Assembly: GCA_964549635.1 (NCBI GenBank)
Contig: CAZJVJ010000002.1
Coordinates: 40,567-104,566 of the forward strand
DNA length: 64,000 bases
From: an uncultured Dehalococcoidales bacterium
GTDB taxonomy: Bacteria; Chloroflexota; Dehalococcoidia; GIF9; UBA5629
Direction of reading: 5' to 3'
The position numbers and the translations under genes are program-made. A model generated the notes under the pieces. That model saw only the letters and a list, made by a program, of their open reading frames with translations. It was not told the origin of the DNA and made no database searches. Of this stretch, positions 25,886 to 55,040 are shown one piece after another (within the stretch, counting starts at the first letter, position 1; the number at the start of each line of letters is the position of its first letter).

Positions 25886-25914
25886 TTGACACAGGTTGTA
25901 GCGTGTGCTATATT
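25886..25914 (+). promoter_or_regulatory. near-consensus extended -10 promoter for the thiolase/hydratase/ACAD operon (TTGACA-17 nt-TGcTATATT)
   Basis: -35 TTGACA at 25886-25891, TG at 25906-25907, -10 TATATT at 25909-25914. AGGAGG lies 8 nt before ATG 25955. Confidence 0.55.
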
Positions 25915-25954: not shown

Positions 25955-27397
25955 ATGGTTGGTATTAAGTCCTATGGCGCTTACATCCCGCGGTACAGAA
26001 TGAACCGCAATACTATCTTTGGAGCGGTGGGGTTTCTGGGTACATTTCCAACACCTGGCGAGAAAGCGGTTGCCAATCACGATGAGGATACCCTTAGCAT
26101 GGCGGTAGCTGCTGGGATCGACTGCATCGATGGGCTGAAAAGAGAAGTAATAGATGGTTTGTATCTTGCTACTACCAGTCAGCCATATGTGCTGAGACAA
26201 AACTCGGCGATAGTTGCTGTTGCTCTTGATTTGCAGCCTAATATAAGGACAGCTGATTTCATCGCCTCCAACAAGGCGGGTACTACTGCTCTCATTGCTG
26301 CCTTTGACGCTGTAAAGGGGGGTACCTCGAGCAATATTTTAGTCTGCGCTTCAGATTGCCGACTGAGCAAGCCTGGTGGTCCTCAGGAACATCTGTATGG
26401 TGACGGCGCTGCAGCTTTATGGGTAGCGAATGACGATGTAATTGCTACTTTCGAGGGTTTTTATTCTGTTTCCTACGATTTCCCGGACCGCTGGAAGGCA
26501 AGCACCGAGGACTTTGAACATGCTTGGGAAGATAGATTCATTCGGGACGAAGGCTATACAAAAATGATACCCGAAGCAATTGCTGGCCTACTTAAGAAGT
26601 ATAATTTGAACATAAGGGAATTTGCCAAAATTGCGTTTCCCGGTATTTATGCCAGAGAGCATGCCGGTATTCTCAAAAGACTGGGTGCAGAACCGGGCCA
26701 AAGTCAGGATACCTTAATTGACAAAGTTGGTGATACCGGGACAGCTTCACCCTTAATGATGCTTGTAGCTGCGCTAGAGGATGCCAAACCTGGAGACAAG
26801 ATTCTGGTTGCCAGCTTTGGTAACGGCAGTGATGCCCTGTTTTTCCAAGTGACCGAAAATATAAAGAACGTAGGCGAGAGGCGTGGAGTGAAGAAACATT
26901 TGGTTTCAAAAAAGGAGCTCACCAGCTATGAAAAATATCTGGCTTTCCGTAAGTTAGCGCCGATGGACGTTGGCCTTCGGGGTGAGGTAGGCATTCGCAC
27001 CCCAATGTCTGCACTATATAGGGAACGAAAGACGATCCTAGGCTTGGTTGGCTCCAGGTGTAAAAAGTGTGGCACTCCGCAATATCCACCTCAAAGAGTT
27101 TGCGTCAACCCTGATTGTGGATCTGTGGATGAGATGGAAGACTATCGCTTTTCAGATAAGAAGGGCGTTGTGTTTACTTATACTGGAGACAATTTAGCTG
27201 CAAGTATTGACCCACCGTCAATTTATGGTCTGGTGGATTTTGAAGCTGGTGGAAGGTACTGGTTTGATTTTACAGATTGCGACCTTGACTCAGTTAGAGT
27301 AGGTATACCTGTGGAGATGACCTTTCGCAAAAGGTATGCGGACGAACCAACAGGTGTATATGGTTATTCTTGGAAGGCAACACCTATACGTGACTAG
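25955..27397 (+). CDS. HMG-CoA-synthase-like thiolase-fold domain fused to a DUF35 zinc-ribbon/OB-fold domain; catalytic residues apparently substituted
   Basis: The N-terminus 'MVGIKSYGAYIPRYRM' and overall pattern are HMGCS-like. The C-terminal 'CKKCGTPQYPPQRVCVNPDCGS' plus OB region matches DUF35. The Glu/Cys/His positions read T74/N106/P229 by eye alignment to MvaS. Confidence 0.7.
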   Translation: MVGIKSYGAYIPRYRMNRNTIFGAVGFLGTFPTPGEKAVANHDEDTLSMAVAAGIDCIDGLKREVIDGLYLATTSQPYVLRQNSAIVAVALDLQPNIRTADFIASNKAGTTALIAAFDAVKGGTSSNILVCASDCRLSKPGGPQEHLYGDGAAALWVANDDVIATFEGFYSVSYDFPDRWKASTEDFEHAWEDRFIRDEGYTKMIPEAIAGLLKKYNLNIREFAKIAFPGIYAREHAGILKRLGAEPGQSQDTLIDKVGDTGTASPLMMLVAALEDAKPGDKILVASFGNGSDALFFQVTENIKNVGERRGVKKHLVSKKELTSYEKYLAFRKLAPMDVGLRGEVGIRTPMSALYRERKTILGLVGSRCKKCGTPQYPPQRVCVNPDCGSVDEMEDYRFSDKKGVVFTYTGDNLAASIDPPSIYGLVDFEAGGRYWFDFTDCDLDSVRVGIPVEMTFRKRYADEPTGVYGYSWKATPIRD

Positions 27398-27432: not shown

Positions 27433-28635
27433 ATGGCAGAAGGCATTAAAGACAAGGTAGCTATTATAGGTATGGGATGTACTAAATTTGGAGAACTGTG
27501 GGACAAGAGCGCTGAGGATTTGATGGTTGATGCGTTTAAGGAATGCATTGAGGATGCGGGGATAGATAAGAAAGACCTTCAGGCTGCTTGGTTTGGGGTA
27601 CACTTTGAAGAGCAAAGTGTCGGCAAAGGCGCCACATCCTTGGCGCTGGCACTTAAGTTGCCCTTTATTCCGGTCACACGGACAGAAAACTTTTGTGCTA
27701 CCGCAACCGAAGCTTTCAGAGGTGCCTGTTACGCGGTGGCTTCTGGGGCTTATGACATTGTGCTTGCGTTAGGCGTGGAGAAGCTCAAGGATACTGGATA
27801 TGGTGGACTTCCTGGTGGCCCTGGTTTGATGGGGACGAGAAATGCACTTATCATGCCCAAGCTGACTGCCCCGGGGGCTTTTGCTATGATGGCTACTAGA
27901 TATTTTGCCGTGTATGGGCTCAGTCCGGAGGAAGGCAAAAGGATGTTGGCTAAGGTGTCAGTCAAAAGTCATTACAATGGAGCCAGGAATCCAAAGGCAC
28001 ACCTGCGCCGCGAGATAACTGAAGAGCAGGTGGTTAACGCCCCTATTATTGCTTGGCCGCTTGGGCTTTTCGACTGCTGTGGAGTGAGTGATGGCGCGGC
28101 AGCAGCAATTGTTACTCGAGCCGACATGGCTAAAAATTTCAGGCCTGACCCTGTATATGTGAAAGCGCTCCAGGTTGCCGTAAGTTCAGGTGAAGAGTTG
28201 ATGTATACCAAGTGGGATGGCGCTCATGTTGAGACGGGGTACCGGGCCGGAGTCCTTGCTTACAAAGAGGCTGGTATCAAGAATCCGCGCCAGGAGATAA
28301 GTATGGCCGAGGTACACGACTGCTTTTCGATTACTGAAGCAGTAACAATGGAGGATTTGCAGTTCAGCCCCAGAGGAAAGGTTAAAGAAGATATTGAATC
28401 TGGTCGCTTTAATATTAATGGAGAGCAACCTATCCAGCCTGATGGTGGCTTGAAATGCTTTGGGCATCCTATTGGCGCTTCTGGGTTGAGAATGCTGTAT
28501 GAAATGTACAAGCAGTTACAGGGGAAGGCTCAGTTGCCCGAGCGCCAGATAAAGAATCCCAAACTGGGTCTCACTCATAACATGGGTGGCTTCCCGGCGA
28601 TGAATATAGTCAGCGTGGCTATCGTCGGACTGTAA
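27433..28635 (+). CDS. SCP2-type (nonspecific lipid-transfer-protein-like) thiolase
   Basis: 400 aa with nucleophile region 'ENFCATATEAF', 'VHDCFS' (the HDCF motif of SCP2 thiolases), 'CFGHPIGASG' and 'HNMGG'. Confidence 0.8.
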   Translation: MAEGIKDKVAIIGMGCTKFGELWDKSAEDLMVDAFKECIEDAGIDKKDLQAAWFGVHFEEQSVGKGATSLALALKLPFIPVTRTENFCATATEAFRGACYAVASGAYDIVLALGVEKLKDTGYGGLPGGPGLMGTRNALIMPKLTAPGAFAMMATRYFAVYGLSPEEGKRMLAKVSVKSHYNGARNPKAHLRREITEEQVVNAPIIAWPLGLFDCCGVSDGAAAAIVTRADMAKNFRPDPVYVKALQVAVSSGEELMYTKWDGAHVETGYRAGVLAYKEAGIKNPRQEISMAEVHDCFSITEAVTMEDLQFSPRGKVKEDIESGRFNINGEQPIQPDGGLKCFGHPIGASGLRMLYEMYKQLQGKAQLPERQIKNPKLGLTHNMGGFPAMNIVSVAIVGL

Positions 28636-28662: not shown

Positions 28663-29142
28663 ATGATGGCTGAAGGCTCCCTAATTACGGATGCACTTAA
28701 AAAGCTGATAGGTGTTCCTGGAGAGCCAGTTATTTTTAAAGTTGAAGAAGGAGCGATACAAAGGTATGCACAAGCTATAGGTGACCCTAATCCTTTATTC
28801 AACGATATAGAGAATGCCAGCAAGAACAAATATGGCAGGTTGATTTGCCCTCCAGGCTTTACCGGGTGGCCGATAAAGCCCGGATTTTCTATGTTTAAAC
28901 TGATTGATTCGTTGGTCAAAGCTGGGGCACCACCTCGGTTGCTGGACGGCGGTGTGGAATATGAATTTTTTGAGCCGATAGGGGCCGGAGATGTGCTAGT
29001 TGCTACCACAAAGGTTGCTGATATCACTGAACGTGAAACAAGAATGGGCAAGACCTTGTTTACCACTGTCGAGACGACCTTTGTCAACCAAAAGAATAAC
29101 AAGGTCATGCTAAAAAGCCGTTCCACGTTGATCCAATTTTAG
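28663..29142 (+). CDS. MaoC_dehydrat_N / FAS1-like hot-dog subunit (non-catalytic hydratase partner)
   Basis: 159 aa. 'FKVEEGAIQRYAQAIGDPNPLF' is typical of the N-terminal hot-dog half of (R)-hydratases. It lacks the hydratase-2 motif. Confidence 0.65.
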   Translation: MMAEGSLITDALKKLIGVPGEPVIFKVEEGAIQRYAQAIGDPNPLFNDIENASKNKYGRLICPPGFTGWPIKPGFSMFKLIDSLVKAGAPPRLLDGGVEYEFFEPIGAGDVLVATTKVADITERETRMGKTLFTTVETTFVNQKNNKVMLKSRSTLIQF

Positions 29143-29176: not shown

Positions 29177-29647
29177 ATGGCTAAGCAAGTTTATTATGAA
29201 GATGTTGAAGTGGGAACCGAAATACCCCCGCTAGCTAAAATTGCCACAACTCGGATGCTGGTTCAGTGGGCAGGAGCCAGTGGTGATTTTAACCCATTAC
29301 ATTATGAAGATGACTTTGCCAAAGCTATGGGTGTAGGTGCACCTATAGTGCACGGTGCACTCAAACGTGCCTGGCTTGGACAACTGATGACAGATTGGAT
29401 TGGTGAGGAGGGGGTGCTAAAAAAACTGTCATGCCAGTATCGTGGCATGGACTACCCGCGTAAGATGAAAACCATAGAAGAACCGCACGATGGTGAGACA
29501 TGGTGGTGCAAAGGTAGGGTGGTCAAGAAATATGAGGAGGGTGGCGAGCACCTGGTAGAGTGTGAAATCTGGGTAGAAAATGGTAAGGGGGAAAAGACGA
29601 CACCGGGTAAAGCCTTGGTTGCCCTACCATCAAGAGGCAAGAAATAA
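29177..29647 (+). CDS. MaoC-like (R)-specific enoyl-CoA hydratase catalytic subunit
   Basis: 156 aa with the hydratase-2 motif 'SGDFNPLHYEDDFAKAMG'. Confidence 0.8.
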   Translation: MAKQVYYEDVEVGTEIPPLAKIATTRMLVQWAGASGDFNPLHYEDDFAKAMGVGAPIVHGALKRAWLGQLMTDWIGEEGVLKKLSCQYRGMDYPRKMKTIEEPHDGETWWCKGRVVKKYEEGGEHLVECEIWVENGKGEKTTPGKALVALPSRGKK

Positions 29648-29758: not shown

Positions 29759-30538
29759 ATGGGAAAACTTGATGGAAAGGTAGCAGTTATTACCGGAGCG
29801 GCAAGGGGTATAGGCGAAGCTGATGCGGTATTGTTTGCCAAAGAGGGCGCTGCTGTTTTGTTGAGCGACATTGATGAAGCTCCGCTAAAGGAAGTGGTTC
29901 AGAAGATAAGGGCTGCTGGTGGAAAGGCCGAAGCTTGTGCCGGCGATGTTACGAAACCGGAGGATTGCCAGAGGATGATGGATATGGCAGTCGAGAAATT
30001 CGGCAAAATCGATATCCTAGTCAACAATGCCGGGCTTACCAGAGATGCCTTAATACATAAGATGACTGATGCCCAGTGGGACTTGTGCATCAACATTAAC
30101 CTTAAGGGGACTTTCAATTGCATTAGAGCTGCTTCCAAATATATGATGAAGGAAGGGCATAACGGAAGAATAATCAATGTTGCCTCTGTGGCCGGACTAA
30201 TGGGCAATGTAGGGCAGATAAACTATTCTGCGGCTAAGGCAGGTCTTATTGGGCTCACCAAAACCGTGGCCAGGGAATGGGGTAGATACGGTATTACTTG
30301 CAATGTTATAGCTTATGGTTTCGTTGATACGCGGTTGACAAGAGAGAAGGAAGTACAGCAAGAGGAAGTAGCTGGTGAACTAGTAGGTATACCAAAGAAA
30401 GTGAGGGATATGGTTCTTTTGCAAGTTAAGCCTATGACACCTGAAGATGCTGCCAAACCTGTACTTTTCTTGGCTTCTGATGATGCTGCTTTTATCACAG
30501 GCCAGGTATTGAACGTTTCAGCCGGAATGTATATGTAG
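29759..30538 (+). CDS. short-chain dehydrogenase/reductase (FabG-like 3-oxoacyl reductase / hydroxyacyl-CoA dehydrogenase)
   Basis: 259 aa with 'TGAARGIGEA', 'NNAG' and 'YSAAKAG'. Confidence 0.8.
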   Translation: MGKLDGKVAVITGAARGIGEADAVLFAKEGAAVLLSDIDEAPLKEVVQKIRAAGGKAEACAGDVTKPEDCQRMMDMAVEKFGKIDILVNNAGLTRDALIHKMTDAQWDLCININLKGTFNCIRAASKYMMKEGHNGRIINVASVAGLMGNVGQINYSAAKAGLIGLTKTVAREWGRYGITCNVIAYGFVDTRLTREKEVQQEEVAGELVGIPKKVRDMVLLQVKPMTPEDAAKPVLFLASDDAAFITGQVLNVSAGMYM

Positions 30539-30631
30539 TTTTACCATCTAGCCTGTTGGGGACATCGGGCTTATTGATGAGATAACAACTACGGGTGGGC
30601 AACAACCGAAATAAATATGAGGAGGCCTGAG

Positions 30632-31567
30632 ATGGCAAGGAGGCTGGAAGGTAAGGTAGCTGTGGTTACTGGTGCTGGGCGTGGTATTGGTAGGGCTGAG
30701 GCGTTGGCTTTAGCTGCCGAAGGGGCCAGGGTGGTGGTTAACGACTTTGGTGGTGCTGGTGATGGCACTGGTGCCTCTAAGGCTCCAGCAGGTGAGGTTG
30801 TCCAGGAGATTAAGAAACTTGGTGGCGAGGCCGTTGCTAATTATGACACTGTAGCCACTCCAGAAGGCGGGGAGAATATCATCAAGACCGCAATTGATGC
30901 TTTTGGTCGCATCGATATCCTAGTTAACAATGCCGGAATCCTTCGCGACCGCATGATTTTCAATATGAGCGAAGAGGAATGGGATGCGGTAATTAAAGTT
31001 CATTTGTATGGTACTTTCCATTGTACAAAACCGGCATGTGTCTATTTCAGGCAGCAGAGGAGTGGCAGGATAGTAAATACGTCCTCTACCTCAGGTTTAG
31101 GTAATATGGGACAGGCTAACTACAGTGCTGCCAAAGAAGGAATTGTTGGCTTTACTCGGACAGTAGCCAGGGACATGGGGAGGTATGGTGTAACGTGTAA
31201 CGCTATTCGCCCCAGTGCCGGAACAAGGCTGACGCTAACGCCGGAGCTGAGAGCTGCCTGGGAGAAGGCTAAGGCTGAAGGCTTGCGTCCTCAAGCAGGT
31301 GTCATAACCCTCGATGAACTTGAAAAAATGACCCCTGAGATGGTAGCTCCGCTGGTTGTATACCTGTGCACTGACGAAGCAGCGAACATAAACGGTTGCA
31401 CCTTCTGGGTGGGTGGTGGTGAGATAGGTATTTACTCGGAACCGGAAGTAAGAAGCCGGATATATAAAGAAGGTATATGGACAGTGGATGAACTGATTAA
31501 CATCGTTCCCAGAACTCTGGCTAGGGGACTGATAAATCCGGCACCTCCACAGACACCAAAGCAATAG
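30632..31567 (+). CDS. SDR resembling the (3R)-hydroxyacyl-CoA dehydrogenase domain of multifunctional enzyme type 2
   Basis: 'VVTGAGRGIGRAEALALAAEGARVVVNDFGG...GGEAVANYDTV...AFGRIDILVNNAGILRDR...GQANYSAAK' tracks the MFE-2/HSD17B4 N-terminal domain. I prefer ATG 30632 (GAGGAGG 6 nt upstream) over 30617. Confidence 0.7.
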   Translation: MARRLEGKVAVVTGAGRGIGRAEALALAAEGARVVVNDFGGAGDGTGASKAPAGEVVQEIKKLGGEAVANYDTVATPEGGENIIKTAIDAFGRIDILVNNAGILRDRMIFNMSEEEWDAVIKVHLYGTFHCTKPACVYFRQQRSGRIVNTSSTSGLGNMGQANYSAAKEGIVGFTRTVARDMGRYGVTCNAIRPSAGTRLTLTPELRAAWEKAKAEGLRPQAGVITLDELEKMTPEMVAPLVVYLCTDEAANINGCTFWVGGGEIGIYSEPEVRSRIYKEGIWTVDELINIVPRTLARGLINPAPPQTPKQ

Positions 31568-31772: not shown

Positions 31773-32975
31773 ATGGATTTCAAACTGAGTGACAAAGAAA
31801 AAGCTTTAATAGAAGAGATTGCAAAATTTGCCAAGGAAGAGCTACCTGAAGATTTTGTCGGCACTCATCTAATTGACCAAGAGTACCCAAACTTCGAATT
31901 CGAAATATCTATGTCCAAAAAGCTGGCCCAGAAAGGGTGGCTAGTAATGAGCTGGCCGAAGGAGTATGGTGGGCAAGGAGCTTCTTTACTTGAACAAACA
32001 GTGTATGAAATGGAGATATCCTACTGGGGGATACCAGGAGCATGGATGGGCATAAGTGGCACACAGTGGGTGGGGCCATGCCTCATGCTGTTCGGAACAG
32101 AAGAACAGAAGAAGAAATACCTGCCGCTCATTGCCTCCGGTGATAAAGACGGTGTCTGGTGCACCGGGTACAGTGAGCCAAATGCAGGCTCTGACCTTGC
32201 CAATCTGCAGACACGAGCTGTGAGGGATGGTACCGATTACATAATCAATGGCCAGAAGGTATGGACTAGCAAGGCCCACCACGCAAGGTGGTGCTGGCTT
32301 CTGGCGAGGACAGACCCTAGTGCAGCGAAGAAACACCGTGGACTTAGCCTGTTTATAGTGGACATGAAGAGTCCGGGAATAACGGTCAACCCTATATTGA
32401 ACTACTACGGTCGGCATCACTTTAATGAGGTGTTTTTTGACAATGTTAAGATCCCGGCTTCTAATCTGGTTGGTGAGGAGAACAGGGGATGGTATCACCT
32501 GATGCAAGCTCTGGCATTTGAGAGACGAAGTGTGGCCCCCCTAGCTTATGGAAGTTCTAAGAGGTTGCTGGAATCACTGGTTAAGTATGCCAGAGAAACT
32601 CATTACCAGGGTAAGTTACTGAGCCAGGTTCCCGCTGTCCGTCATAAACTGGCTGAGCTGGCGATAGATGTGGAGGTGATTAAACTGTTTGCTTACCAGT
32701 TTACTTGGCGAGTGATGCAGGGTGCGATACCCGCCTATGAATCCTCTAGAAATAAAATCATGGGTGATGACGTGCTTCGAAAGGTGGCCATTTTGGGGGC
32801 AGATATATTAGGAGTATACTCGCAAGTTGATCCGAATTCGAAATGGGCCCGACTTAAGGGGGCCATTCAGGGGGCTTATCTCGGTTTTCCTGGCTCTATG
32901 ATTGCTGCGGGTACTGCTGAAATTGAAAGAAGCATTATAGCCCAGTTTAAGCTGGGCCTGCCGAAATCGTACTAG
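31773..32975 (+). CDS. acyl-CoA dehydrogenase, class A (IVD/LCAD-type catalytic Glu present)
   Basis: 'MDFKLSDKEKALIEE', 'ALAFERRSV' (Glu at the IVD position) and 'AAGTAEIERSII' (Ala at the MCAD Glu position). I prefer ATG 31773 after GGGAGG. Confidence 0.8.
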   Translation: MDFKLSDKEKALIEEIAKFAKEELPEDFVGTHLIDQEYPNFEFEISMSKKLAQKGWLVMSWPKEYGGQGASLLEQTVYEMEISYWGIPGAWMGISGTQWVGPCLMLFGTEEQKKKYLPLIASGDKDGVWCTGYSEPNAGSDLANLQTRAVRDGTDYIINGQKVWTSKAHHARWCWLLARTDPSAAKKHRGLSLFIVDMKSPGITVNPILNYYGRHHFNEVFFDNVKIPASNLVGEENRGWYHLMQALAFERRSVAPLAYGSSKRLLESLVKYARETHYQGKLLSQVPAVRHKLAELAIDVEVIKLFAYQFTWRVMQGAIPAYESSRNKIMGDDVLRKVAILGADILGVYSQVDPNSKWARLKGAIQGAYLGFPGSMIAAGTAEIERSIIAQFKLGLPKSY

Positions 32976-32994
32976 ACGTTTGTAGGAGGTCACC

Positions 32995-34149
32995 ATGGAT
33001 TTTGGTTTCACAGAAGAGCAAGAGATGCTCCGAACCATGGCAAGAGATTTTCTAGCCAATGAATGTCCCAAGTCGAAGGTTAGAGAGCTGGACAGAGATG
33101 AAAAGGGCTACGATCCTAAGATGTGGCGCGATATGGCAGAACTGGGGTGGATGGGACTTATCTTCCCGGAGAAGTATGGCGGGACTGGAGCCAAATTTGT
33201 AGATATGGTAGTTTTGATGGAAGAAATGGGGAGGAATATTGTACCGGGGCCTTTCTTTTCAACCATTGCCCTGTGCGCCTTACCCATCCTTGAATTCGGT
33301 ACGGAGGAACAGAAATCTAAATTTCTGCCAGAGATAATAAAAGGTGAAGCTATATGGACGTTAGCTCTGATGGAACCATCAGCTAGTTATGAGGCACCAG
33401 GGATAAATTTTAGTGCTTATTTGGAAGGAGATGAGTATGTACTAGAGGGTGAGAAGATTTTTGTTCCCGATGCTCACATAGCTGATTACGTTCTTGTGGT
33501 AGCCAGGACGGGCAAAGGTGAAACACCTGAAACGGGCATCGCGTTATTCATAGTCCAGGGCAAATCTCCAGCCCTCAAAATTGAAAGAATACCTACCATG
33601 GCTGGAGACAGGCAGTTTCAGGTTATTTTTGATAGAATCAAGGTATCTAGGAATGACATTCTGGGAATAGCAGGTAAGGGATGGGAAGTAGTGGACTTTA
33701 TTTTACAGAGAGCCGCTGTATTGAAATGTGCTGAGATTTCAGGCGCGTGTCAAGCTGTTCTTGATATGACCAGCACGTATGCCAGGGAGCGGATTCAGTT
33801 CGAACGTCCGATAGGAGCGTTTCAGGCGGTACAGCAAAAATTGGCTGACATGCTTATAGATGTTGAAGCGATTCAGTTCCTTGTTTACCAGGCGGCCTGC
33901 AGTATTGATGAAGGTAAACCATCCCAATTACTGATTTCAATAGCCAAAGCTAAAGCAAGCGAGGCTTATCAGAAGATTTGTATTGATGGCATTACCTCAC
34001 ATGGAGCGATAGGTTTTACCTGGGATCACGATATCGGGCTCTACTACAGGCGAGTCAAGGCAGCCCAGTTCACTGCTGGTGATATTGATCTGCATCGGGA
34101 GAAAATAGCTATTGAGCTGGGGCTTCAGCATGACACAGAGCTTAATTAG
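32995..34149 (+). CDS. acyl-CoA dehydrogenase family, class B (both known catalytic-base positions substituted)
   Basis: ACAD fold ('MDFGFTEEQEMLR', 'PEKYGGTG'), but 'DFILQRAAV' has Gln at the IVD position and 'FTAGDIDLHRE' has Ala at the MCAD position. Confidence 0.75.
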   Translation: MDFGFTEEQEMLRTMARDFLANECPKSKVRELDRDEKGYDPKMWRDMAELGWMGLIFPEKYGGTGAKFVDMVVLMEEMGRNIVPGPFFSTIALCALPILEFGTEEQKSKFLPEIIKGEAIWTLALMEPSASYEAPGINFSAYLEGDEYVLEGEKIFVPDAHIADYVLVVARTGKGETPETGIALFIVQGKSPALKIERIPTMAGDRQFQVIFDRIKVSRNDILGIAGKGWEVVDFILQRAAVLKCAEISGACQAVLDMTSTYARERIQFERPIGAFQAVQQKLADMLIDVEAIQFLVYQAACSIDEGKPSQLLISIAKAKASEAYQKICIDGITSHGAIGFTWDHDIGLYYRRVKAAQFTAGDIDLHREKIAIELGLQHDTELN

Positions 34150-34374: not shown

Positions 34375-36165
34375 ATGAAAAAGGGTCTGTTTCTATTGTT
34401 AACTGGTCTTTTGTCGGCATCATTGTGCCTGCCAGCGTGTCAACCTAAGGCTATAGAGGAGAACATCATCAAAATCGGCATCGTCGGGCCGATGCAGTTC
34501 ATGCAAGGTGAGCATCACTGGATGGGTGCGACTATGGCTGCTGAGGAAATCAACAATGCTGGCGGAGTAAGTTTGGGCGGGAAAAAGTATCTTATAAAGC
34601 TCGTCAAAATTGATAGCAATGAGATACTTGATGTTGCTGGTGCTGCATCCGCAGTGGAGAGAGCCATAACCGTGGATAAAGTTGACTTCCTAATGGGCGG
34701 TTTCAGGACAGAAGCAGTTTACCCCATGTCCGATGTAGCCATGGACTATAAAAAGATTTTCATCAACTGTGGCGCTGCCACTGCAGCACTTCAGAAGCGA
34801 GTGGCCGATGATTACAATCGTTATAAGTACTTTTTCAAGGGCACTCCGTTCAATGAGTACTTTTTGGTGGAAAACAATTTCCGCATGTTAGGAATGGTTG
34901 CCGCTATTTTAAAAAAGGAACTGGGCATAGAAGAACCTAGGGTTGCCATAATTGCTGAAAAGCTGGAGTGGACTGAAGCAATGGTGCGATTAGCCCAGGC
35001 GAAATTACCGGGTATGGGGATGGAGGTAGTTGGTGTGTGGCGGCCATCGGATACGGCTACAGATGTCACCGCCGAGCTGACGGCCATTGCTGCCAAGGAA
35101 CCCCACATTATATTTACCGTGTTCTCTGGCCCTGTGGGCATTACCTATGCTAAACAACGCGGCGAGCTGAAGATACCTGCTTGTTCAGTTGGTATTGTTG
35201 TTGAAGGTCAGAAAAAGGAGTTCTGGACAGCTACCGGTGGCAAAGGCAACTATGAGACATTCTTAAACACGTATGCCAAGGGTGTAGCCTTAACTCACAA
35301 GACGGTACCTTTCTTCGAAGAGTTCGAGAGGCGAACTGGTCAATTCCCGACATACACCGCGGCTACTTATGATGCTGTCTGGAGTACCAAAGAAACGATT
35401 GAAGCGCTTCAGACCCTAGATGCTGATGCTCATGTTCCCTATATTGAAAAGTCATCATTTGTTAGCACTGGTGGGGTTCGAGAGTACTATCAACTGGGTG
35501 ATTCGCCATGTCCGCCAAAGTGTCCTCATGACCTAGTTTATGGTCCGGGCAAACTAACAGGTATTTGCACACAGTGGCAGGATGGAGAGCTTAAAGCTGT
35601 CTGGCCAAAGAAGGAATATGGCACGGGTGAGTGGGCATTTGAGTATCCAGGCACTGTTCCATTCAAGATACCGCCTGAGGTAATCGCTAAGTTTAAGGAC
35701 GCCAAACCTGTACCGAAACCGGAAGCACCGAGACCTAAAGTTAACGAGTATGTCAATGCTGACTATGGCTTTTCAGTGAGATATCCAATACAGTGGGTGG
35801 CGGCAGCACCTACTGCGCCGGCTGTGCTATATGCTGCTAGCCCAGCTAGGGTTCCAGCTATTCATGTTTTCGTGCTAGAAGGTGCCACTTTTGCCGATGC
35901 GGTAAAAACCGCGCTGGAGAAAGGGGCTGGTGGTTCGGCTATTAAGATTGGGGGTGAGAAGGAGACAACCCTAGCTGACGGCACTAAAGCTACGGCAGCT
36001 AAGGTGGACTGGACAGTCCTGGGATTTTCAGGCGAATCATATGCCTTGGGAGTGAAAAAGGCTGACAAGTGGATTATAGTTACTATAACCACTGTAGCCC
36101 TGGTTGAGGCTTATGACGAGGCTAAATTCTCAGAGATAGCGCGCACTCTTGAGTTTAAAAAGTAG
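34375..36165 (+). CDS. lipoprotein: type-1 periplasmic-binding-fold (Leu/Ile/Val-binding family) solute-binding protein with an extra C-terminal domain of about 139 aa
   Basis: Lipobox 'LCLPAC'. SBP core 'IKIGIVGPMQF...AAEEINNAGGV'. A Pro-rich linker 'KPVPKPEAPRPK' precedes a C-terminal domain (nt 35746-36162) homologous to the C-terminus of the 48964 lipoprotein. Confidence 0.75.
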   Translation: MKKGLFLLLTGLLSASLCLPACQPKAIEENIIKIGIVGPMQFMQGEHHWMGATMAAEEINNAGGVSLGGKKYLIKLVKIDSNEILDVAGAASAVERAITVDKVDFLMGGFRTEAVYPMSDVAMDYKKIFINCGAATAALQKRVADDYNRYKYFFKGTPFNEYFLVENNFRMLGMVAAILKKELGIEEPRVAIIAEKLEWTEAMVRLAQAKLPGMGMEVVGVWRPSDTATDVTAELTAIAAKEPHIIFTVFSGPVGITYAKQRGELKIPACSVGIVVEGQKKEFWTATGGKGNYETFLNTYAKGVALTHKTVPFFEEFERRTGQFPTYTAATYDAVWSTKETIEALQTLDADAHVPYIEKSSFVSTGGVREYYQLGDSPCPPKCPHDLVYGPGKLTGICTQWQDGELKAVWPKKEYGTGEWAFEYPGTVPFKIPPEVIAKFKDAKPVPKPEAPRPKVNEYVNADYGFSVRYPIQWVAAAPTAPAVLYAASPARVPAIHVFVLEGATFADAVKTALEKGAGGSAIKIGGEKETTLADGTKATAAKVDWTVLGFSGESYALGVKKADKWIIVTITTVALVEAYDEAKFSEIARTLEFKK

Positions 36166-51348: not shown

Positions 51349-52482
51349 CTATAGGCCTAATTCCCTGGCTACGATGGCACGTTGAAAATTACTATCGCCG
51401 AACATTATATCGCCAGTCTTGGCCCGTCTGTAGTACAGATGAATATCGTGGTCCATAGTGAAGCCGATTGCACCGAATATTTGGTGTGCAAGCAGGGTAA
51501 CCCGGCAACAGGCTTCGCCGGTCCACGCTTTGGCAATAGCCACGTCCATATCAGAAGGTAGCCCCTCGCTCACCTTCCAGGCTGCCTTATACGTGATAAA
51601 CCGTGCTCCATCAACATCGGTCACCATATTGGCACAATAATGCTGAATAGCTTGAAAGCTGCCGATAGGTCGGTTAAACTGAATTCTTTCTTTGGCATAC
51701 TGTACAGCCATCTCTAATGCGGCTTGGGCACCACCGACCATTTCAGCGCATTTTGCCACAGTGGCTTTTCGGAGCGTTTCTTTCACTATAGGCCAGCCTT
51801 GGTCTAGACTTCCTATAATATTCTTCTGCGGGACGCTTACATTGTCGAAAACGACCTCACACTGTTTGTCACGAGCTAACGTTTTTAGTAGAGTGCACTT
51901 AACTCCTGGGCTTTTGGCATCAACAAGGAAAATGGTGATTCCATTCTCCGGGTCACCTCCATCCTTTGTCCTGGCCACGCATAGTATGTAGTCAGCTACA
52001 TTGGCATCAGGAATGAAAAGTTTGATACCATTAATAATGTACCCGTTGCTGCTAGCCACGGCCTTGGTCTTGATTGATGGAGCATCATACCTGGCGCTGG
52101 GTTCTGTTAGTGCTAGTGTGAGGAGCATCTTACCACTGGCGATTTGAGGCAGGAATTCCTTCTTTTGCTCCTCGTTTCCCGCTGCCAATATGGTAAGACC
52201 ACCGAGAACGACGGTGGAGAAAAATGGGCCGGGCACAATATTGTGGCCCATTACCTCAAGTAGGACTATCAAATCCAGGAATCTGCCGTTGCTACCGCCG
52301 TATTTTTCGGGGAAAACCAACCCCATCCAGCCCAGTTCAGCCATTTTCCTCCACAAATCAGGGGAGTAGCCTGTATCGCTTTCGTCTAATTGCCTAACCA
52401 ACTGCTTGGGGCATTCCTTTTGCAGAAAGTCACTGGCCGATTTTTTCAACATCTCTTGTTCTTCAGTTAGACCAAGGTCCAT
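51349..52482 (-). CDS. acyl-CoA dehydrogenase family, class B (catalytic-base positions substituted)
   Basis: 377 aa, a close paralogue of 32995-34149 ('MDLGLTEEQEMLK', 'PEKYGGSNG'). 'KETLRKATV' and 'IMFGDSNFQRA' lack Glu at both reference positions. Confidence 0.75.
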   Translation of the reverse strand: MDLGLTEEQEMLKKSASDFLQKECPKQLVRQLDESDTGYSPDLWRKMAELGWMGLVFPEKYGGSNGRFLDLIVLLEVMGHNIVPGPFFSTVVLGGLTILAAGNEEQKKEFLPQIASGKMLLTLALTEPSARYDAPSIKTKAVASSNGYIINGIKLFIPDANVADYILCVARTKDGGDPENGITIFLVDAKSPGVKCTLLKTLARDKQCEVVFDNVSVPQKNIIGSLDQGWPIVKETLRKATVAKCAEMVGGAQAALEMAVQYAKERIQFNRPIGSFQAIQHYCANMVTDVDGARFITYKAAWKVSEGLPSDMDVAIAKAWTGEACCRVTLLAHQIFGAIGFTMDHDIHLYYRRAKTGDIMFGDSNFQRAIVARELGL

Positions 52483-52582
52483 CTGGTTACCTCCTAGTCT
52501 ATTTCATGAAGTCTTTATATAAGCTGCGCAGCACCATTTGTGTAAACATCTAAAATAGCGTAAGTGGACATAATTTCCAGCT

Positions 52583-53779
52583 CTATCCACGAGGTAATCC
52601 GAGTCCTCTCATAGCGATGATGTTTCGCTGGATTTCAGAGGTACCAGCACCGACGAGGGCAGAAATACAATCCAGGTACCCGGCTTGGACTCTGCCCCTT
52701 AGAGCTGCCCACTTAGCATTTTTTTCCAGTAGCCCGTAATGACCCAGGATCTGCATTCCAGCGCTGGCTAACTTTTGGCTAAGCTGGGTGGTGAACAGCT
52801 TCAGCACAGAGGCTTCAATGTTCGGGACGAGGCCTTTGTCTAGCATCCAGGCCGTTTGCCAGAAGAACATGTAGGCGACCTCAATCTCGATTGCCGTGGA
52901 AGCTAACAGGTTCTTAACCATGGGGTCTTGGCTTAAGGTGCGGCCGTCTAGTTTTGTTTCTTTGGCATACTGGACTATCTCTTCGAACGTTCGCTTAAAG
53001 CCTCCAATGGGAATTACAAGTCTCTCAAAATCTAAGGCTACCATTACATAGTACCAACCCTTGTTCTTTTCGCCCACGATGTTCTTTTTGGGTACGCGTA
53101 CATTGTCAAAAAATACTTCATTGAAGGAATGGGTACCGCAGATGTTTATCAAAGGCCGGATAGTAACGCCCGGAGACTTATTGTCCACTATAAGCAGTGT
53201 AATTCCTTTGTGGGGAGCAGCATTGGGGTCTGTTCTGACAATCATCCAGGCATAATGCGATACATGGGCAGCCGTACTCCAGATTTTCTGTCCGTTGATA
53301 ACAAGGTAATCACCATCCTCCACAGCACGGGTTTGAATGGAGGCAAGGTCGGAGCCGGCATTTGGCTCGCTATAGGCGAGCCAGAAACGCACCTCACCTC
53401 GGGCTATTCTAGGGAGCCATTCCTTTTTCATCTCGTCGTTACCAAATAGCATAATCGTTGGTCCGCCAATGAGCGTGGCTACTTCACCGCTAGGCGCCCT
53501 GTAATAGCTCATTCGCTCATGGAAGATGGCTTGTTCAATATTGGAGCGGCCAGCTCCACCGTATTCTTTAGGCCACGAAATAGTAAGCCAGCCTTTCTGG
53601 GCTAGTTTGTGTCTGAACATTTCTATCTGAATGTTGATCTCTTCAAATTCTGATAGCGTGCCATATCCGCCGGGCCAGTAGATGGTTTTCTCAGCCCAGT
53701 CCGGCGGCAGTTCCTGCTTTATAAAGTCTTCGACTTCTTTTCGAAATGCCTCTTCCTTCTCACTGAAACGGAAGTCCAT
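52583..53779 (-). CDS. acyl-CoA dehydrogenase, class A
   Basis: 398 aa with 'MDFRFSEKEEAFRKEV', 'ALDFERLVI' (IVD-position Glu) and 'GAGTSEIQRNII'. Confidence 0.8.
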   Translation of the reverse strand: MDFRFSEKEEAFRKEVEDFIKQELPPDWAEKTIYWPGGYGTLSEFEEINIQIEMFRHKLAQKGWLTISWPKEYGGAGRSNIEQAIFHERMSYYRAPSGEVATLIGGPTIMLFGNDEMKKEWLPRIARGEVRFWLAYSEPNAGSDLASIQTRAVEDGDYLVINGQKIWSTAAHVSHYAWMIVRTDPNAAPHKGITLLIVDNKSPGVTIRPLINICGTHSFNEVFFDNVRVPKKNIVGEKNKGWYYVMVALDFERLVIPIGGFKRTFEEIVQYAKETKLDGRTLSQDPMVKNLLASTAIEIEVAYMFFWQTAWMLDKGLVPNIEASVLKLFTTQLSQKLASAGMQILGHYGLLEKNAKWAALRGRVQAGYLDCISALVGAGTSEIQRNIIAMRGLGLPRG

Positions 53780-53817
53780 GTTGTGTTGCCCTTTCCTTAA
53801 AGCCGGTGTTGTGCTTA

Positions 53818-55005
53818 CTATCGAGGTAACCCTAAACCTCTCACCGCAATAATGGTACGCTGGATCTCGTTAGTACCACCGCCCACGCCTATTGAAACTG
53901 AGCTTAGGTACATACGCATTATCATAGCATTGAGGGGAGCCCATTTGGATTCTCTGTCCAGTGCACCATAGTGTCCTAGGATGCGCATTCCAACATCAGC
54001 CACTCGCCTCGTTACTTCGCTACTAAAAACCATTGCCATGGATGATTCGTAGCTTGGGTGAAGGTTCTTACTGTACATCCAGGCGATGCGGTAACACATC
54101 ATTCTGAGGACTTCATTTGCGACTGTTACTTCTGCCAGTGCGTTTCTAATAAGCGGGTCATTGGCGATTGGTTCGCCGTTAACCTTGGTTTCTTTGGCAT
54201 ATTTAACCAGTTCCTCGATGACTCTTTGCTGTGCCGCTGCGGTGCCGACTGATGAGCGCTCATAGTCTAGAGCTATAACCAGTTGATACCAGCCGTTGTT
54301 TTTCTGCCCTACCAGGTTTTCTTTAGGAATGCGTACATCATCGAAGAAAACCTCATTAAACGAGTGGCGGTTCAAGATGTTTATCAAAGGACGAATAGTA
54401 ATCCCTGGTGTCTTCATGTCAACAATAAACATGCTGATCCCTTTATGCTTAGGGGCATTCGGGTCAGTTCTGGCAGCTAGCCAGCAATAGTCAGCTAAGT
54501 GACCGTAGCTACACCATATCTTCTGGCCATTGATCACATAGTAGTCACCGACTTCGACAGCGCGGGTCTGGAGTGCAGCAAGGTCGGACCCTGCGTTTGG
54601 TTCGCTATACCCAAGACAGAAGATGATATCACCTTTTGCCACCCGGGTTACATAGTCCTTTTTTTGTTTCTCAGTCCCGAAGAGCATTATGGTGGGGGCA
54701 ACCCAGTTGACTGTTATCTCTACTTCAACGCTTACTGGTGCTCTGTTGTATGCTAACTCTTCGGCAAGAATGAGCCGTTTTGTATGGCTCAATTCCAAGC
54801 CACCGTACTCCTTAGGATATGCTGGTGCCAGCCAGCCTTTTTGGCCAAGTTTGCGATGAAACTGACGAGAAATTGCCCAGGACTCTTCTGTTTCCTCCCA
54901 CACGCCAGGGGAAAGTTCAAACCACCTTGGCGGGATTTCCTTTTTTAGCCACTCACGCACCTCTTGCCTGAATGCCTCCTCCTCCTCGGAGAATCTGAAA
55001 TCCAT
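53818..55005 (-). CDS. acyl-CoA dehydrogenase, class A
   Basis: 395 aa with 'MDFRFSEEEEAFRQEV', 'ALDYERSSV' (IVD-position Glu) and 'GGGTNEIQRTII'. Confidence 0.8.
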   Translation of the reverse strand: MDFRFSEEEEAFRQEVREWLKKEIPPRWFELSPGVWEETEESWAISRQFHRKLGQKGWLAPAYPKEYGGLELSHTKRLILAEELAYNRAPVSVEVEITVNWVAPTIMLFGTEKQKKDYVTRVAKGDIIFCLGYSEPNAGSDLAALQTRAVEVGDYYVINGQKIWCSYGHLADYCWLAARTDPNAPKHKGISMFIVDMKTPGITIRPLINILNRHSFNEVFFDDVRIPKENLVGQKNNGWYQLVIALDYERSSVGTAAAQQRVIEELVKYAKETKVNGEPIANDPLIRNALAEVTVANEVLRMMCYRIAWMYSKNLHPSYESSMAMVFSSEVTRRVADVGMRILGHYGALDRESKWAPLNAMIMRMYLSSVSIGVGGGTNEIQRTIIAVRGLGLPR

Positions 55006-55040
55006 GCTTACCCTCCGTTAGTAAATTGGGTTGGTTGCGT

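What the first reader, a model, noticed from the sequence alone, without database searches (positions are those of the whole stretch)
31773..34149. ACAD pair of one catalytic-type and one apparently non-catalytic subunit
The five ACADs in the window fall into two sequence classes. Class A (31773, 52583, 53818) has Glu at the isovaleryl-CoA-dehydrogenase base position ('AFERR', 'DFERL', 'DYERS') and Ala or Gly at the MCAD Glu376 position ('AAGTAEI', 'GAGTSEI', 'GGGTNEI'). Class B (32995, 51349) has neither: 'ILQRA'/'TLRKA' at the first position and 'FTAGD'/'MFGDS' at the second. Here, A and B are adjacent and 19 nt apart. This layout matches the alpha2beta2 heterotetrameric ACADs of mycobacterial steroid catabolism (the ChsE/FadE pairs), where only one subunit is catalytic.
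Basis: partly seen in the sequence, partly recalled or inferred. Interest (0 to 1): 0.6.

Follow-up and report, generated by a model that had tools for sequence, protein, structure and literature searches.

The report
Two-subunit acyl-CoA dehydrogenase, one subunit inactive
Two adjacent genes in an uncultured Dehalococcoidia bacterium almost certainly encode the active and the inactive helper subunit of one fatty-acid-oxidising flavoenzyme, a design known from cholesterol-degrading bacteria, so this is a new example of a known kind in a new phylum.

Summary
The window has exactly five acyl-CoA dehydrogenase (ACAD) genes in two classes. Class A (31773, 52583, 53818) has Glu at the helix-G base position; A1 Glu250 aligns with ChsE4 Glu247. 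It has Ala or Gly at the MCAD-Glu376 position. Class B (32995, 51349) has no Glu at either position. A1 and B1 are 19 nt apart, with AGGAGG before the B1 start.

Class A keeps the motifs that hold the flavin ring in its own pocket and has lost those that clamp the partner's FAD. Class B shows the reverse. ChsE4/ChsE5 and Tcur3483/Tcur3481 show the same complementary pattern. Homomeric ACADs (1BUC, 1UKW, 2PG0) keep both sets. Class A shares an 8-residue insertion with the solved alpha subunits. In NJ trees A joins the alpha clade (100%) and B the beta clade (99.8%). All 40 A1 orthologues are followed by a B gene. Both genes are under purifying selection.

The operon also encodes a heteromeric MaoC hydratase, an MFE-2-type dehydrogenase and an SCP2-type thiolase with a DUF35 scaffold. 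The substrate is unknown and a steroid role is not shown. Some genomes carry unlinked alpha-like or beta-like genes. This is a new member of a known kind.

The parts
31773..32975 (+). A1, alpha-type (catalytic) ACAD subunit, 400 aa
   Evidence: It has the Pfam ACAD N, M and C domains. Its best solved relatives are ChsE4 (4x28_A, 2.2e-62) and Tcur3483. Its best NCBIfam match is pimC_large, below the cut-off. It falls in the alpha clade with 100% support.
32520..32522 (+). Codon of A1 Glu250, the predicted catalytic base on helix G (AFERR)
   Evidence: It aligns with Glu247 of ChsE4 and with the Glu of 2PG0 'QQERL'. The codon was checked.
32907..32909 (+). Codon of A1 Ala379, at the MCAD Glu376 / 1BUC Glu367 position
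   Evidence: The alignments place IAAGT against IYEGT. The codon was checked.
32976..32994 (+). 19-nt A1-B1 spacer with Shine-Dalgarno AGGAGG at 32984-32989
   Evidence: Read directly from the sequence.
32995..34149 (+). B1, beta-type (non-catalytic) ACAD subunit, 384 aa
   Evidence: It has the Pfam ACAD domains. It has no Glu at either base position. It keeps the trans FAD motifs RERIQFERPIGAFQ (264-277) and HGAIGF (336-341). It has lost the cis motifs (EPSASYE, IFVPD). It falls in the beta clade with 98-99.8% support. The AF2 model has pLDDT 87 and an ACAD fold.
33712..33714 (+). Codon of B1 Ala240, at the helix-G (IVD/ChsE4) base position
   Evidence: From the alignments. The codon was checked.
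34075..34077 (+). Codon of B1 Ala361, at the MCAD Glu376 position
   Evidence: HMMER aligns it to Glu367 of 1BUC. The codon was checked.
53818..55005 (-). A3, second-cluster alpha-type ACAD (Glu249, DYERS)
   Evidence: (ChsE4 5.7e-70).
52583..53779 (-). A2, second-cluster alpha-type ACAD (Glu252, DFERL)
51349..52482 (-). B2, second-cluster beta-type ACAD (Ala240, Phe361), downstream of A3 and A2
   Evidence: The same A-A-B order is seen on a public contig.
25955..27397 (+). HMG-CoA-synthase/PhlA-like domain fused to DUF35, the likely scaffold of the thiolase
   Evidence: Pfam zf-ChsH2, OB_ChsH2_C and ACP_syn_III_C. PDB matches to PhlA, 6esq_I and 6esq_E.
27433..28635 (+). SCP2-type thiolase
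   Evidence: NCBIfam PRK06157 at 630 bits, above the cut-off. PDB matches to 6esq_A, SCP2 thiolases and BbsB. The NFCAT Cys and the HDCF motif are read from the sequence.
28663..29142 (+). MaoC/hot-dog subunit without the catalytic His (IGDPNPLF), HadA/ChsH-like partner
   Evidence: Pfam FAS1_DH_region, NCBIfam HadA-like, and the sequence.
29177..29647 (+). MaoC (R)-hydratase subunit with the SGDFNPLH motif, HadB-like
29759..30538 (+). Classical SDR (FabG-like)
30617..31567 (+). SDR of the MFE-2 / HSD17B4 (3R)-hydroxyacyl-CoA dehydrogenase type
   Evidence: PDB matches to 2et6 (3.6e-103), 1zbq and 1gz6.

Best explanation
A1 (31773-32975) and B1 (32995-34149) are the alpha and beta subunits of one heteromeric acyl-CoA dehydrogenase of the ChsE4-ChsE5 / Tcur3483-Tcur3481 / PimC-PimD kind. 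It is most likely an alpha2beta2 tetramer with two active sites instead of four.

Each alpha-beta dimer would have one working pocket, in alpha. Alpha holds the isoalloxazine and ribityl part of FAD through EPNAGSD 135-141, W164-T165-S166 and G380-T381-x-E383. Alpha also binds the acyl-CoA and carries the base Glu250 on helix G, which removes the alpha-proton while the beta-hydride goes to flavin N5. Beta supplies in trans the residues that clamp the ADP part of that FAD (R266...Q268-F269...P272-I273-G274...F276-Q277, and H336-G-A-I-G340). Beta's own pocket is dead. It has no base (Ala240, Ala361) and its cis flavin motifs are destroyed (EPSASYE, IFVPD, AGDID). The reciprocal site cannot form, because alpha has lost the trans motifs and carries an 8-residue insertion there.

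The two genes are co-transcribed. They are the first step of an operon-encoded beta-oxidation cycle of the (R)-specific MFE-2/SCPx type: a heteromeric MaoC hydratase, an MFE-2-type 3-hydroxyacyl-CoA dehydrogenase, and an SCP2 thiolase on a DUF35 scaffold. The cycle is fed by an ABC importer and CoA ligases. Its substrate is probably a bulky or methyl-branched acyl-CoA.

In the second cluster, the single beta B2 probably serves both A3 and A2.

What is shown: the residues, the motifs, the homology, the synteny and the selection. What is inferred: assembly, FAD stoichiometry, the direction of the reaction, the substrate and the electron acceptor. No ETF was seen among the window ORFs of at least 150 aa that were scanned.
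For: - Residue positions: A1 Glu250 aligns with ChsE4 Glu247. B1 Ala361 aligns with 1BUC Glu367.
- Complementary motif loss matches ChsE4/ChsE5 and Tcur3483/Tcur3481. The homomeric 1BUC, 4L1F, 5OL2, 1UKW and the helix-G-Glu enzyme 2PG0 keep both motif sets and lack the insertion.
- This matches published descriptions. The alpha subunit binds the isoalloxazine and carries the Glu and the substrate site, while beta contacts the ADP-ribose (PMC11153573). There is one Glu and one FAD per alpha-beta dimer (PMC8399759).
- The pattern is conserved in all A-like and B-like genes examined.
- NJ bootstrap support is 100% for the alpha clade and 98-99.8% for the beta clade.
- Best solved relatives of A1 and A3 are ChsE4 and Tcur3483, by a margin of about 50-60 bits. 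NCBIfam gives pimC_large as the best match for A and a full-length pimD_small match for B.
- Synteny: 57 B-like genes have an A gene directly upstream. All 40 A1 orthologues of at least 53% identity with room on the contig have B downstream.
- dN/dS is 0.03-0.09 for A and 0.06-0.08 for B.
- A Shine-Dalgarno sequence sits 5 nt before the B1 start in the 19-nt gap.
- Operon partners are described.
- The Pro aligned with ChsE4 Pro89 is kept in A1-A3. That proline is linked to a widened pocket in PMC11153573.
Against: - No biochemical or structural data exist for this pair, and a heteromer prediction could not be run.
- By score, B1 is closer to ordinary butyryl-CoA dehydrogenases (4l1f, 204 bits) than to Tcur3481 (159 bits) or ChsE5 (117 bits). 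Foldseek does not separate beta subunits from ordinary ACADs.
- Fifteen loci in Binataceae, delta-proteobacterial and other proteobacterial MAGs have a beta-like gene with no alpha within 8 kb.
- 35 loci have an alpha-like gene of 42-50% identity with no beta within 5 kb. So linkage is not universal, and alpha-type or beta-type proteins might be able to work without the other.
- The assignment of motifs to cis or trans FAD contacts rests on my recollection of the MCAD structure plus the empirical alignment pattern, not on a structure of this protein.
- The trees use few outgroups and a simple distance method.
Confidence: 0.78

Rival explanations
1. B1 is not a partner of A1. It is a stand-alone ACAD-fold pseudoenzyme that scaffolds or regulates other enzymes of the operon, such as the MaoC hydratase pair or the SDRs.
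For: In 15 loci from Binataceae, delta-proteobacterial and other proteobacterial MAGs, a beta-like gene with the same dead-site features sits between an SDR and a MaoC pair, with no alpha-type ACAD within 8 kb.
Against: B1 and all its relatives, including the solo ones, keep exactly the residues that contact a partner subunit's FAD (R-x-x-QF-x-RPIG-x-FQ and HGGIGF). This makes sense only beside a flavin-holding ACAD subunit. All A1 orthologues are followed by a B gene. B falls in the clade of the proven beta subunits. Unlinked alpha and beta genes have a precedent: from my own knowledge, M. tuberculosis IpdE1 (FadE30) and IpdE2 (FadE33) are not adjacent.
Confidence: 0.08
2. A1 works alone as an ordinary IVD/LCAD-type homotetramer with its helix-G Glu, and B1 is dispensable.
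For: 35 alpha-like genes in Dehalococcoidia, Tepidiformales and Anaerolineaceae have no beta gene within 5 kb. One locus (L248) has three alpha-like genes in tandem.
Against: A1 has lost the Arg, Phe-Gly and Phe-Gln motif and the GGxG motif, and it has an 8-residue insertion at that site. The nearest homomeric helix-G-Glu enzyme, 2PG0, keeps all of these motifs and has no insertion. B1 is under purifying selection as strong as on A1. It is strictly syntenic with A1 orthologues.
Confidence: 0.07
3. The A1-B1 complex has the proposed architecture but runs in reverse. It would act as an enoyl-CoA reductase in an ACP-independent, thiolase/DUF35-based chain-elongation (reverse beta-oxidation) module rather than in degradation.
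For: [quoted passage not shown] The thiolase here is closest to the archaeal thiolase of the thiolase/HMGCS/DUF35 complex. From established knowledge, ACAD-fold enzymes serve as reductases in anaerobes (Bcd-Etf, CarC).
Against: The operon continues into a solute-binding-protein-dependent ABC importer and acyl-CoA ligases, which fits uptake and catabolism. The archaeal pathway uses an MDR-type enoyl reductase, not an ACAD. No ETF was seen among the window ORFs that were scanned. All characterised alpha2beta2 ACADs are catabolic.
Confidence: 0.1
4. B1 is a conventional active ACAD that uses an unrecognised catalytic base and binds FAD in a modified way.
For: B1 is full length, folds confidently as an ACAD, is highly conserved, and scores best against active butyryl-CoA dehydrogenases. 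Many B-like proteins have Glu or Asp three residues before the Glu376 position.
Against: In B1 itself that residue is Gln358, and in some relatives it is Arg, Ala, Gly or Ser. The G-[ST]-D and [WF]-x-[TS] flavin motifs are replaced in every family member. The same substitutions occur in the structurally proven inactive subunits ChsE5 and Tcur3481.
Confidence: 0.03

Closest known systems
ChsE4-ChsE5 (FadE26-FadE27) of Mycobacterium tuberculosis, PDB 4X28
   Same: - It is encoded by two adjacent ACAD genes in alpha-then-beta order.
- Alpha has Glu on helix G (Glu247, matching A1 Glu250), Gly or Ala at the Glu376 position, intact cis FAD motifs, lost trans motifs and the 8-residue insertion.
- Beta has no Glu, degraded cis motifs and retained trans motifs (RTREQFDRPIGSFQ against RERIQFERPIGAFQ).
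- An MFE-2/Hsd4A-like SDR lies next to the pair in the mycobacterial locus L157 as well.
   Different: - Identity is only about 36% for alpha and about 29% for beta.
- ChsE5 has deleted most of the EPxAGxD loop, whereas B1 keeps the loop with substitutions.
- The host is an uncultured Dehalococcoidia bacterium, not an actinobacterium.
- No steroid-ring degradation genes are present among the window ORFs that were scanned.
- The substrate is unknown.
Tcur3483-Tcur3481 of Thermomonospora curvata, PDB 6WY8
   Same: It has the same alpha/beta signatures. It is the closest solved beta subunit to B1 (about 33% identity, 1.6e-45). Its alpha subunit is about 38% identical to A1.
   Different: It is a bile-acid side-chain enzyme of an actinobacterium. 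In T. curvata the hydratase carries the DUF35 domain and works with an aldolase. Here the DUF35 is fused to an HMGCS-like protein, and the partner is a true thiolase that retains the Cys and the HDCF motif.
PimC-PimD pimeloyl-CoA dehydrogenase (NCBIfam TIGR03204 / TIGR03203)
   Same: It is a two-subunit ACAD outside steroid catabolism. pimC_large is the best NCBIfam model for A1, A2 and A3. pimD_small matches B1 and B2 over their full length.
   Different: The scores (234-257 and 185-206 bits) are far below the equivalog cut-offs (624 and 653). The window genes are therefore not PimCD orthologues. No pimFABE-like context is present.
Homomeric helix-G-Glu ACADs (IVD, LCAD, Geobacillus 2PG0)
   Same: The catalytic Glu is on helix G, and the Glu376 position holds Ala or Gly. 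2PG0 is the sister of the alpha clade, with 77% support.
   Different: They keep both cis and trans FAD motifs, have no 8-residue insertion, and need no second subunit.
CasC / FadE34-type fused double-ACAD proteins
   Same: They divide the work in the same way between a catalytic ACAD domain and a domain that only helps bind FAD.
   Different: The two halves are fused into one polypeptide there. Here they are separate genes.

Membership tests
alpha2beta2 heteromeric ACADs (ChsE/FadE, IpdE, Scd, Tcur3481-3483) | Two ACAD-fold genes, normally adjacent and co-transcribed | tested here: met
   A1 and B1 are on the same strand with a 19-nt gap and a Shine-Dalgarno sequence. The order is conserved in 57 and in 40 related loci.
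alpha2beta2 heteromeric ACADs (ChsE/FadE, IpdE, Scd, Tcur3481-3483) | Only one subunit carries the catalytic Glu (on helix G), and the other has none at either known position | tested here: met
   A1 Glu250 aligns with ChsE4 Glu247. B1 has Ala240 and Ala361.
alpha2beta2 heteromeric ACADs (ChsE/FadE, IpdE, Scd, Tcur3481-3483) | Complementary FAD-site degeneration: alpha holds the isoalloxazine and beta only contacts the ADP-ribose, so there is one FAD per alpha-beta dimer | tested here: met
   This is met at the sequence level only. The motif table and 70 matches the solved pairs and differs from homomeric ACADs.
alpha2beta2 heteromeric ACADs (ChsE/FadE, IpdE, Scd, Tcur3481-3483) | Sequence relationship to proven alpha and beta subunits | tested here: met
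   NJ bootstrap support is 100% for alpha and 98-99.8% for beta. The best PDB hits of A1 and A3 are alpha subunits. For B the raw scores are ambiguous.
alpha2beta2 heteromeric ACADs (ChsE/FadE, IpdE, Scd, Tcur3481-3483) | Physical alpha2beta2 assembly with 2 FAD per tetramer, and activity only as a heteromer | not testable with these tools
   Only monomer prediction was available. This needs co-expression, native mass spectrometry and flavin quantification.
alpha2beta2 heteromeric ACADs (ChsE/FadE, IpdE, Scd, Tcur3481-3483) | Steroid or bile-acid acyl-CoA substrate | not testable with these tools
   The context is an MFE-2/SCPx-type beta-oxidation operon. No steroid-ring genes are present among the window ORFs that were scanned. 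The substrate is open.
PimCD pimeloyl-CoA dehydrogenase (TIGR03204/TIGR03203 equivalogs) | Score above the curated equivalog cut-offs | tested here: not met
   A scores 234-257 bits against a cut-off of 624. B scores 185-206 bits against a cut-off of 653.
Conventional homotetrameric ACAD (MCAD/SCAD/IVD type) | Each subunit has a catalytic Glu and both the cis and the trans FAD-binding motifs | tested here: not met
   A lacks the trans motifs. B lacks the Glu and the cis motifs.

The most novel reading that the evidence does not exclude
In uncultured Dehalococcoidia and Binatia-like bacteria, alpha-type and beta-type ACAD subunits may form a large, partly unlinked mix-and-match system. One dead beta subunit would serve several alphas. 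The evidence is the A-A-B order in this window's second cluster, tandem alpha genes without a beta, and solo beta genes embedded between hydratase and SDR genes. Together with all-heteromeric MFE-2/SCPx-type modules, this would give these organisms a combinatorial capacity to oxidise bulky, methyl-branched, alicyclic or steroid/hopanoid-like acids in anoxic soils, sediments and hot springs.
Probability: 0.2. Interest if true: 0.6.

Novelty: new member of a known kind. Interest (0 to 1): 0.35.

Why it matters
Public records name these proteins only generically, as 'acyl-CoA dehydrogenase' or 'AidB-like'. In the paper library searched, heteromeric ACADs are discussed only for steroid and bile-salt catabolism in Actinobacteria and Proteobacteria.

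Recognising the alpha/beta nature matters in three ways. It halves the number of independent dehydrogenases counted in these genomes. It predicts that either protein expressed alone will be inactive. It also flags a whole operon built from pairs of a catalytic and a non-catalytic subunit: the ACAD, the MaoC hydratase, and the thiolase with its scaffold.

This extends a design thought of as steroid-specific to a widespread, uncultured Chloroflexota lineage. It gives a concrete target for finding what recalcitrant acids these organisms consume. It does not reveal a new mechanism.

Tried and rejected
- **Foldseek of the B1 model against the PDB.** All ACADs score alike (TM 0.85-0.90) and Tcur3481 ranks 33rd. 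This gives no discrimination between beta subunits and ordinary ACADs.
- **Promoter and terminator scans.** Counts equal the shuffled expectation. Only a single strong promoter-like site at 25886-25914, before the first operon gene, is worth noting.
- **First tree attempts.** The Biopython bootstrap timed out. A first NJ run gave NaN distances that deflated the support values. It was redone with capped distances and with more outgroups.
- **Search for conventional YEGT-type ACADs in the fetched loci, for use as outgroups.** None was found. 2PG0 and 1UKW were taken from PDB alignments instead.
- **Primary papers on alpha2beta2 ACADs** (Thomas & Sampson 2013, Wipperman 2013, Yang 2015, Gadbery 2020). 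They are not held in the library. Secondary descriptions were used instead.
- **Search for RNA data.** Only DNA metagenome runs (soil, hot spring) hold the sequence, so co-transcription could not be tested.
- **PimCD orthology.** Rejected on curated cut-offs.
- **The idea that solo alpha-like genes would be complete homomeric enzymes.** Rejected, because they also lack the trans motifs.
- **A steroid-specific role.** This is neither supported nor excluded.
Full report
**What is there**

The window comes from an uncultured Chloroflexota (Dehalococcoidia) bacterium. An identical 10-16 kb segment is present in a public metagenome assembly (GCA_900098825.1) and in a Logan contig. All close relatives of the proteins are from Chloroflexi or Dehalococcoidia MAGs. 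The DNA occurs in soil and hot-spring metagenomes.

A tblastn of the ACAD proteins against the window finds exactly five ACAD loci. Each has the three Pfam ACAD domains. They form two classes:
- A1 (31773-32975, +), A2 (52583-53779, -) and A3 (53818-55005, -) are 45-52% identical to each other.
- B1 (32995-34149, +) and B2 (51349-52482, -) are 52% identical.
- A and B are 27-30% identical.

A1 and B1 are separated by 19 nt that contain AGGAGG, 5 nt before the B1 ATG.

**Checking the residues**

HMMER alignment to solved structures puts A1 Glu250 (AFERR) opposite Glu247 of ChsE4 (NHERV). The same is true of A3 Glu249. B1 Ala361 (FTAGD) lies opposite Glu367 of Megasphaera butyryl-CoA dehydrogenase 1BUC (IYEGT), which is the position of MCAD Glu376.

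I rebuilt the sequences of ChsE4, ChsE5, Tcur3483, Tcur3481, 1BUC, 4L1F, 5OL2_C, 2PG0 and 1UKW from the printed PDB alignments. I aligned them with the window proteins. The result is as follows:
- At the Glu376 column the homomeric MCAD/Bcd-type enzymes have Glu.
- In that column, ChsE4 and Tcur3483 have Gly, A1 and A2 have Ala, and A3 has Gly.
- In that column, ChsE5 and Tcur3481 have Leu, B1 has Ala and B2 has Phe.
- At the helix-G column, ChsE4, Tcur3483, 2PG0 and A1-A3 have Glu.
- In that column, the Bcd/MCAD enzymes have Gly or Thr, and B1 and B2 have Ala.

The codons were verified. A published review of ACAD structures states that the base sits at the Glu376 loop in all known ACADs except LCAD and IVD, which use the helix-G position (PMC11153573). 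So B1 and B2 lack a base at both known positions.

**Beyond the catalytic Glu: complementary decay of the FAD site**

The same alignments show a second, independent signature.

Homomeric ACADs carry two sets of motifs. One is in the middle and C-terminal domains: EPxAG[ST]D, [WF]-I-[TS]-N and G-T-x-E-[IV]. From my knowledge of the MCAD structure, these contact the flavin held in the subunit's own pocket. The other set is R-x-x-F-G-x-P-[IL]-x-x-F-Q and G-G-Y-G-Y, which contact the ADP part of the FAD held by the partner subunit of the dimer.

Class A keeps the first set: EPNAGSD, W-[TSC]-[ST] and GT[ASN]EI. It has lost the second, for example YARETHYQGKLLSQVPAVR and LGVYSQ. At that site it carries an 8-residue insertion that is shared only with ChsE4 and Tcur3483.

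Class B does the reverse. The cis motifs read EPSASYE or EPSARYD, IFVPD or LFIPD, and AGDID or FGDSN. The trans motifs RERIQFERPIGAFQ and HGAIGF are retained, almost as in ChsE5 (RTREQFDRPIGSFQ, HGGVGV) and Tcur3481.

The control is 2PG0. It is a homomeric enzyme with the helix-G Glu and Ala at the Glu376 position, and it is the closest homomeric relative of class A. It keeps both motif sets and has no insertion.

This is the division of labour described for the solved alpha2beta2 enzymes. Alpha binds the isoalloxazine and holds the Glu and the substrate site, and beta contacts the ADP-ribose (PMC11153573). There is one Glu and one FAD per alpha-beta dimer, and the heteromer is required for activity (PMC8399759).

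**Relationship and conservation**

By solved-structure search, A1 and A3 are closest to ChsE4 and Tcur3483, with E-values of 1e-62 to 1e-70. The next hit, 2PG0, scores about 50-60 bits lower. NCBIfam puts pimC_large first for all three A proteins and gives full-length pimD_small and IpdE2 matches for B. All of these are far below the equivalog cut-offs.

B1 scores higher against ordinary butyryl-CoA dehydrogenases than against Tcur3481 or ChsE5. The Foldseek ranking of its AF2 model (pLDDT 87) is uninformative.

Distance trees with 500 bootstraps place A1-A3 and their relatives with ChsE4 and Tcur3483 at 100%. They place B1, B2 and their relatives with ChsE5 and Tcur3481 at 98-99.8%. 2PG0 is sister to the alpha clade at 77%. 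The method is simple and the outgroups are few, so this is supporting evidence only.

Scanning one genome per species with B1 gave 78 loci. In these, 57 B-like genes have an A-like gene directly upstream on the same strand, typically 7-120 nt away. Scanning with A1 gave 80 loci. All 40 with at least 53% identity and enough room on the contig have a B gene directly downstream. One of them is interrupted by a run of N.

All B-likes lack both Glu positions and the cis motifs and keep the trans motifs. All A-likes keep the Glu (with one Asp exception) and the cis motifs and lack the trans motifs.

Against the orthologues in L003 and L004, dN/dS is 0.03-0.09 for A and 0.06-0.08 for B. dS is near saturation, so the ratios are rough. 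B is therefore not a decaying copy.

**Context and likely role**

The pair ends a same-strand gene run that starts after a strong promoter-like site at 25886-25914. The genes in the run are:
- An HMG-CoA-synthase/PhlA-like protein fused to DUF35.
- An SCP2-type thiolase closest to the archaeal thiolase of the thiolase/HMGCS/DUF35 complex and to BbsB. Its nucleophilic Cys (NFCAT) and the HDCF motif are present (and the sequence).
- A MaoC pair. One member has the hydratase motif SGDFNPLH and is HadB-like. The other has IGDPNPLF, without the His, and is HadA-like.
- A FabG-like SDR.
- An SDR closest to the (3R)-hydroxyacyl-CoA dehydrogenase of MFE-2 / HSD17B4.

Downstream lie an ABC importer of the Peripla_BP_6 type and acyl-CoA ligases.

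So the operon encodes a complete (R)-specific beta-oxidation cycle of the MFE-2/SCPx type. In peroxisomes and in steroid-degrading bacteria this type handles methyl-branched or bulky acyl-CoAs. The set of a heteromeric ACAD, a heteromeric MaoC hydratase, a DUF35 domain and an SCP2-thiolase-fold enzyme is the synteny described for steroid side-chain modules (PMC8399759). Here, however, the last enzyme looks like a true thiolase rather than an aldolase, and the DUF35 is attached to a different protein.

A1-A3 keep the Pro aligned with ChsE4 Pro89. That residue is linked to a widened pocket (PMC11153573). The substrate remains unknown.

A reverse, biosynthetic direction cannot be excluded, because related thiolase/DUF35/SDR/MaoC complexes build fatty acids in archaea. 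The importer and the ligases favour catabolism.

**Second cluster**

On the minus strand the order is: biotin carboxylase (58518-59864), carboxyltransferase (56954-58525), enoyl-CoA hydratase (56157-56942), BKACE (55271-56191), a small biotin-carrier ORF (55041-55253, with SMKM), then A3, A2 and B2. With two alphas and one beta, B2 probably pairs with both. An A-A-B-A-B array occurs in L007.

**What does not fit**

- Fifteen loci from Binataceae, delta-proteobacterial and other proteobacterial MAGs have a beta-like gene with the same dead-site features but no alpha within 8 kb. It is flanked by an SDR and a MaoC pair.
- 35 loci have alpha-like genes (42-50% identical to A1) without a beta within 5 kb. 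These solo alphas also lack the trans motifs.

Either the partners are unlinked or shared, or the two types can sometimes act without each other. From memory, IpdE1 and IpdE2 of M. tuberculosis are not adjacent, which would be a precedent for unlinked partners. This lowers my confidence somewhat. It is the basis of the most novel reading.

**Verdict**

Assembly, flavin stoichiometry and substrate remain to be shown. It is a new member of a known kind in a phylum where, in the literature I could search, this architecture has not been discussed. Public annotation is generic. Interest is moderate to low for mechanism and moderate for the ecology of Dehalococcoidia.

Noticed in passing
window 25955-27397 (+) and 27433-28635 (+): An HMG-CoA-synthase/PhlA-like domain is fused to a C-terminal DUF35 (zf-ChsH2 plus OB_ChsH2_C) and lies next to an SCP2-type thiolase. 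In the alignment to PhlA the segment reads 'IASNKAGTTAL'. From memory, HMG-CoA synthases have their nucleophilic Cys where this protein has Asn. It may therefore be a non-catalytic scaffold, like PhlA in the PhlACB complex.
   Followed up: partly
window 28663-29142 (+) and 29177-29647 (+): A MaoC/hot-dog pair in which only the second member has the hydratase motif SGDFNPLH. The first has IGDPNPLF, with the His replaced by Phe. This is another catalytic plus non-catalytic pair in the same operon, resembling HadA/HadB or ChsH1/ChsH2.
   Followed up: partly
window 51349-59864 (-): The second cluster combines a biotin carboxylase, a carboxyltransferase, an enoyl-CoA hydratase, a BKACE beta-keto-acid cleavage enzyme and a 70-aa biotin-carrier ORF (55041-55253, SMKM) with A3-A2-B2. 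It looks like a Liu/Atu-type route for 3-methyl-branched acyl-CoAs, with a BKACE in the place where an HMG-CoA-lyase-type enzyme would be expected.
   Followed up: partly
L050 and L056 (8001-9131 and flanks), plus 13 similar loci: In Binataceae, delta-proteobacterial and other proteobacterial MAGs a beta-like ACAD with no catalytic Glu and degraded cis FAD motifs has no alpha-type ACAD within 8 kb. It always sits between an SDR and a FAS1_DH_region/MaoC pair.
   Followed up: partly
L245-L281 (matches at about 5001-6180), e.g. L248 3771-7380: Alpha-like ACADs 42-50% identical to A1 occur in Dehalococcoidia, Tepidiformales and Anaerolineaceae without any beta-like gene within 5 kb. They still lack the trans FAD motifs and carry the alpha insertion. 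L248 has three in tandem.
   Followed up: partly
L015, L016, L018, L034 (A ends near 7480, B starts at 8001): In one Dehalococcoidia clade the A and B genes are about 480-530 nt apart instead of less than 120 nt. What lies in the spacer was not examined.
   Followed up: no
window 13997-15481 (+), 22922-24304 (+), 24287-24988 (-): There are two CoA_binding/Succ_CoA_lig proteins and an ATP-grasp_5 protein. These are the parts of an ADP-forming acyl-CoA synthetase, which would allow ATP formation from acyl-CoA thioesters made by beta-oxidation.
   Followed up: no
window 34375-36165 (+) and 48964-50040 (+): The Peripla_BP_6 solute-binding protein after B1 is 596 aa long, with a C-terminal extension of about 200 aa and no Pfam match there. 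A predicted lipoprotein in the second transporter cluster has a run of prolines (PPAPPPPPPPPAG) and no Pfam match.
   Followed up: no
L157 6057-6980 (+): In the mycobacterial ChsE4/ChsE5 locus the neighbouring SDR begins '...[36 protein letters not shown]'. This closely resembles the start of the window SDR at 30617 ('[36 protein letters not shown]'). An Hsd4A/MFE-2-type dehydrogenase therefore lies next to the alpha/beta ACAD pair in both phyla.
   Followed up: no
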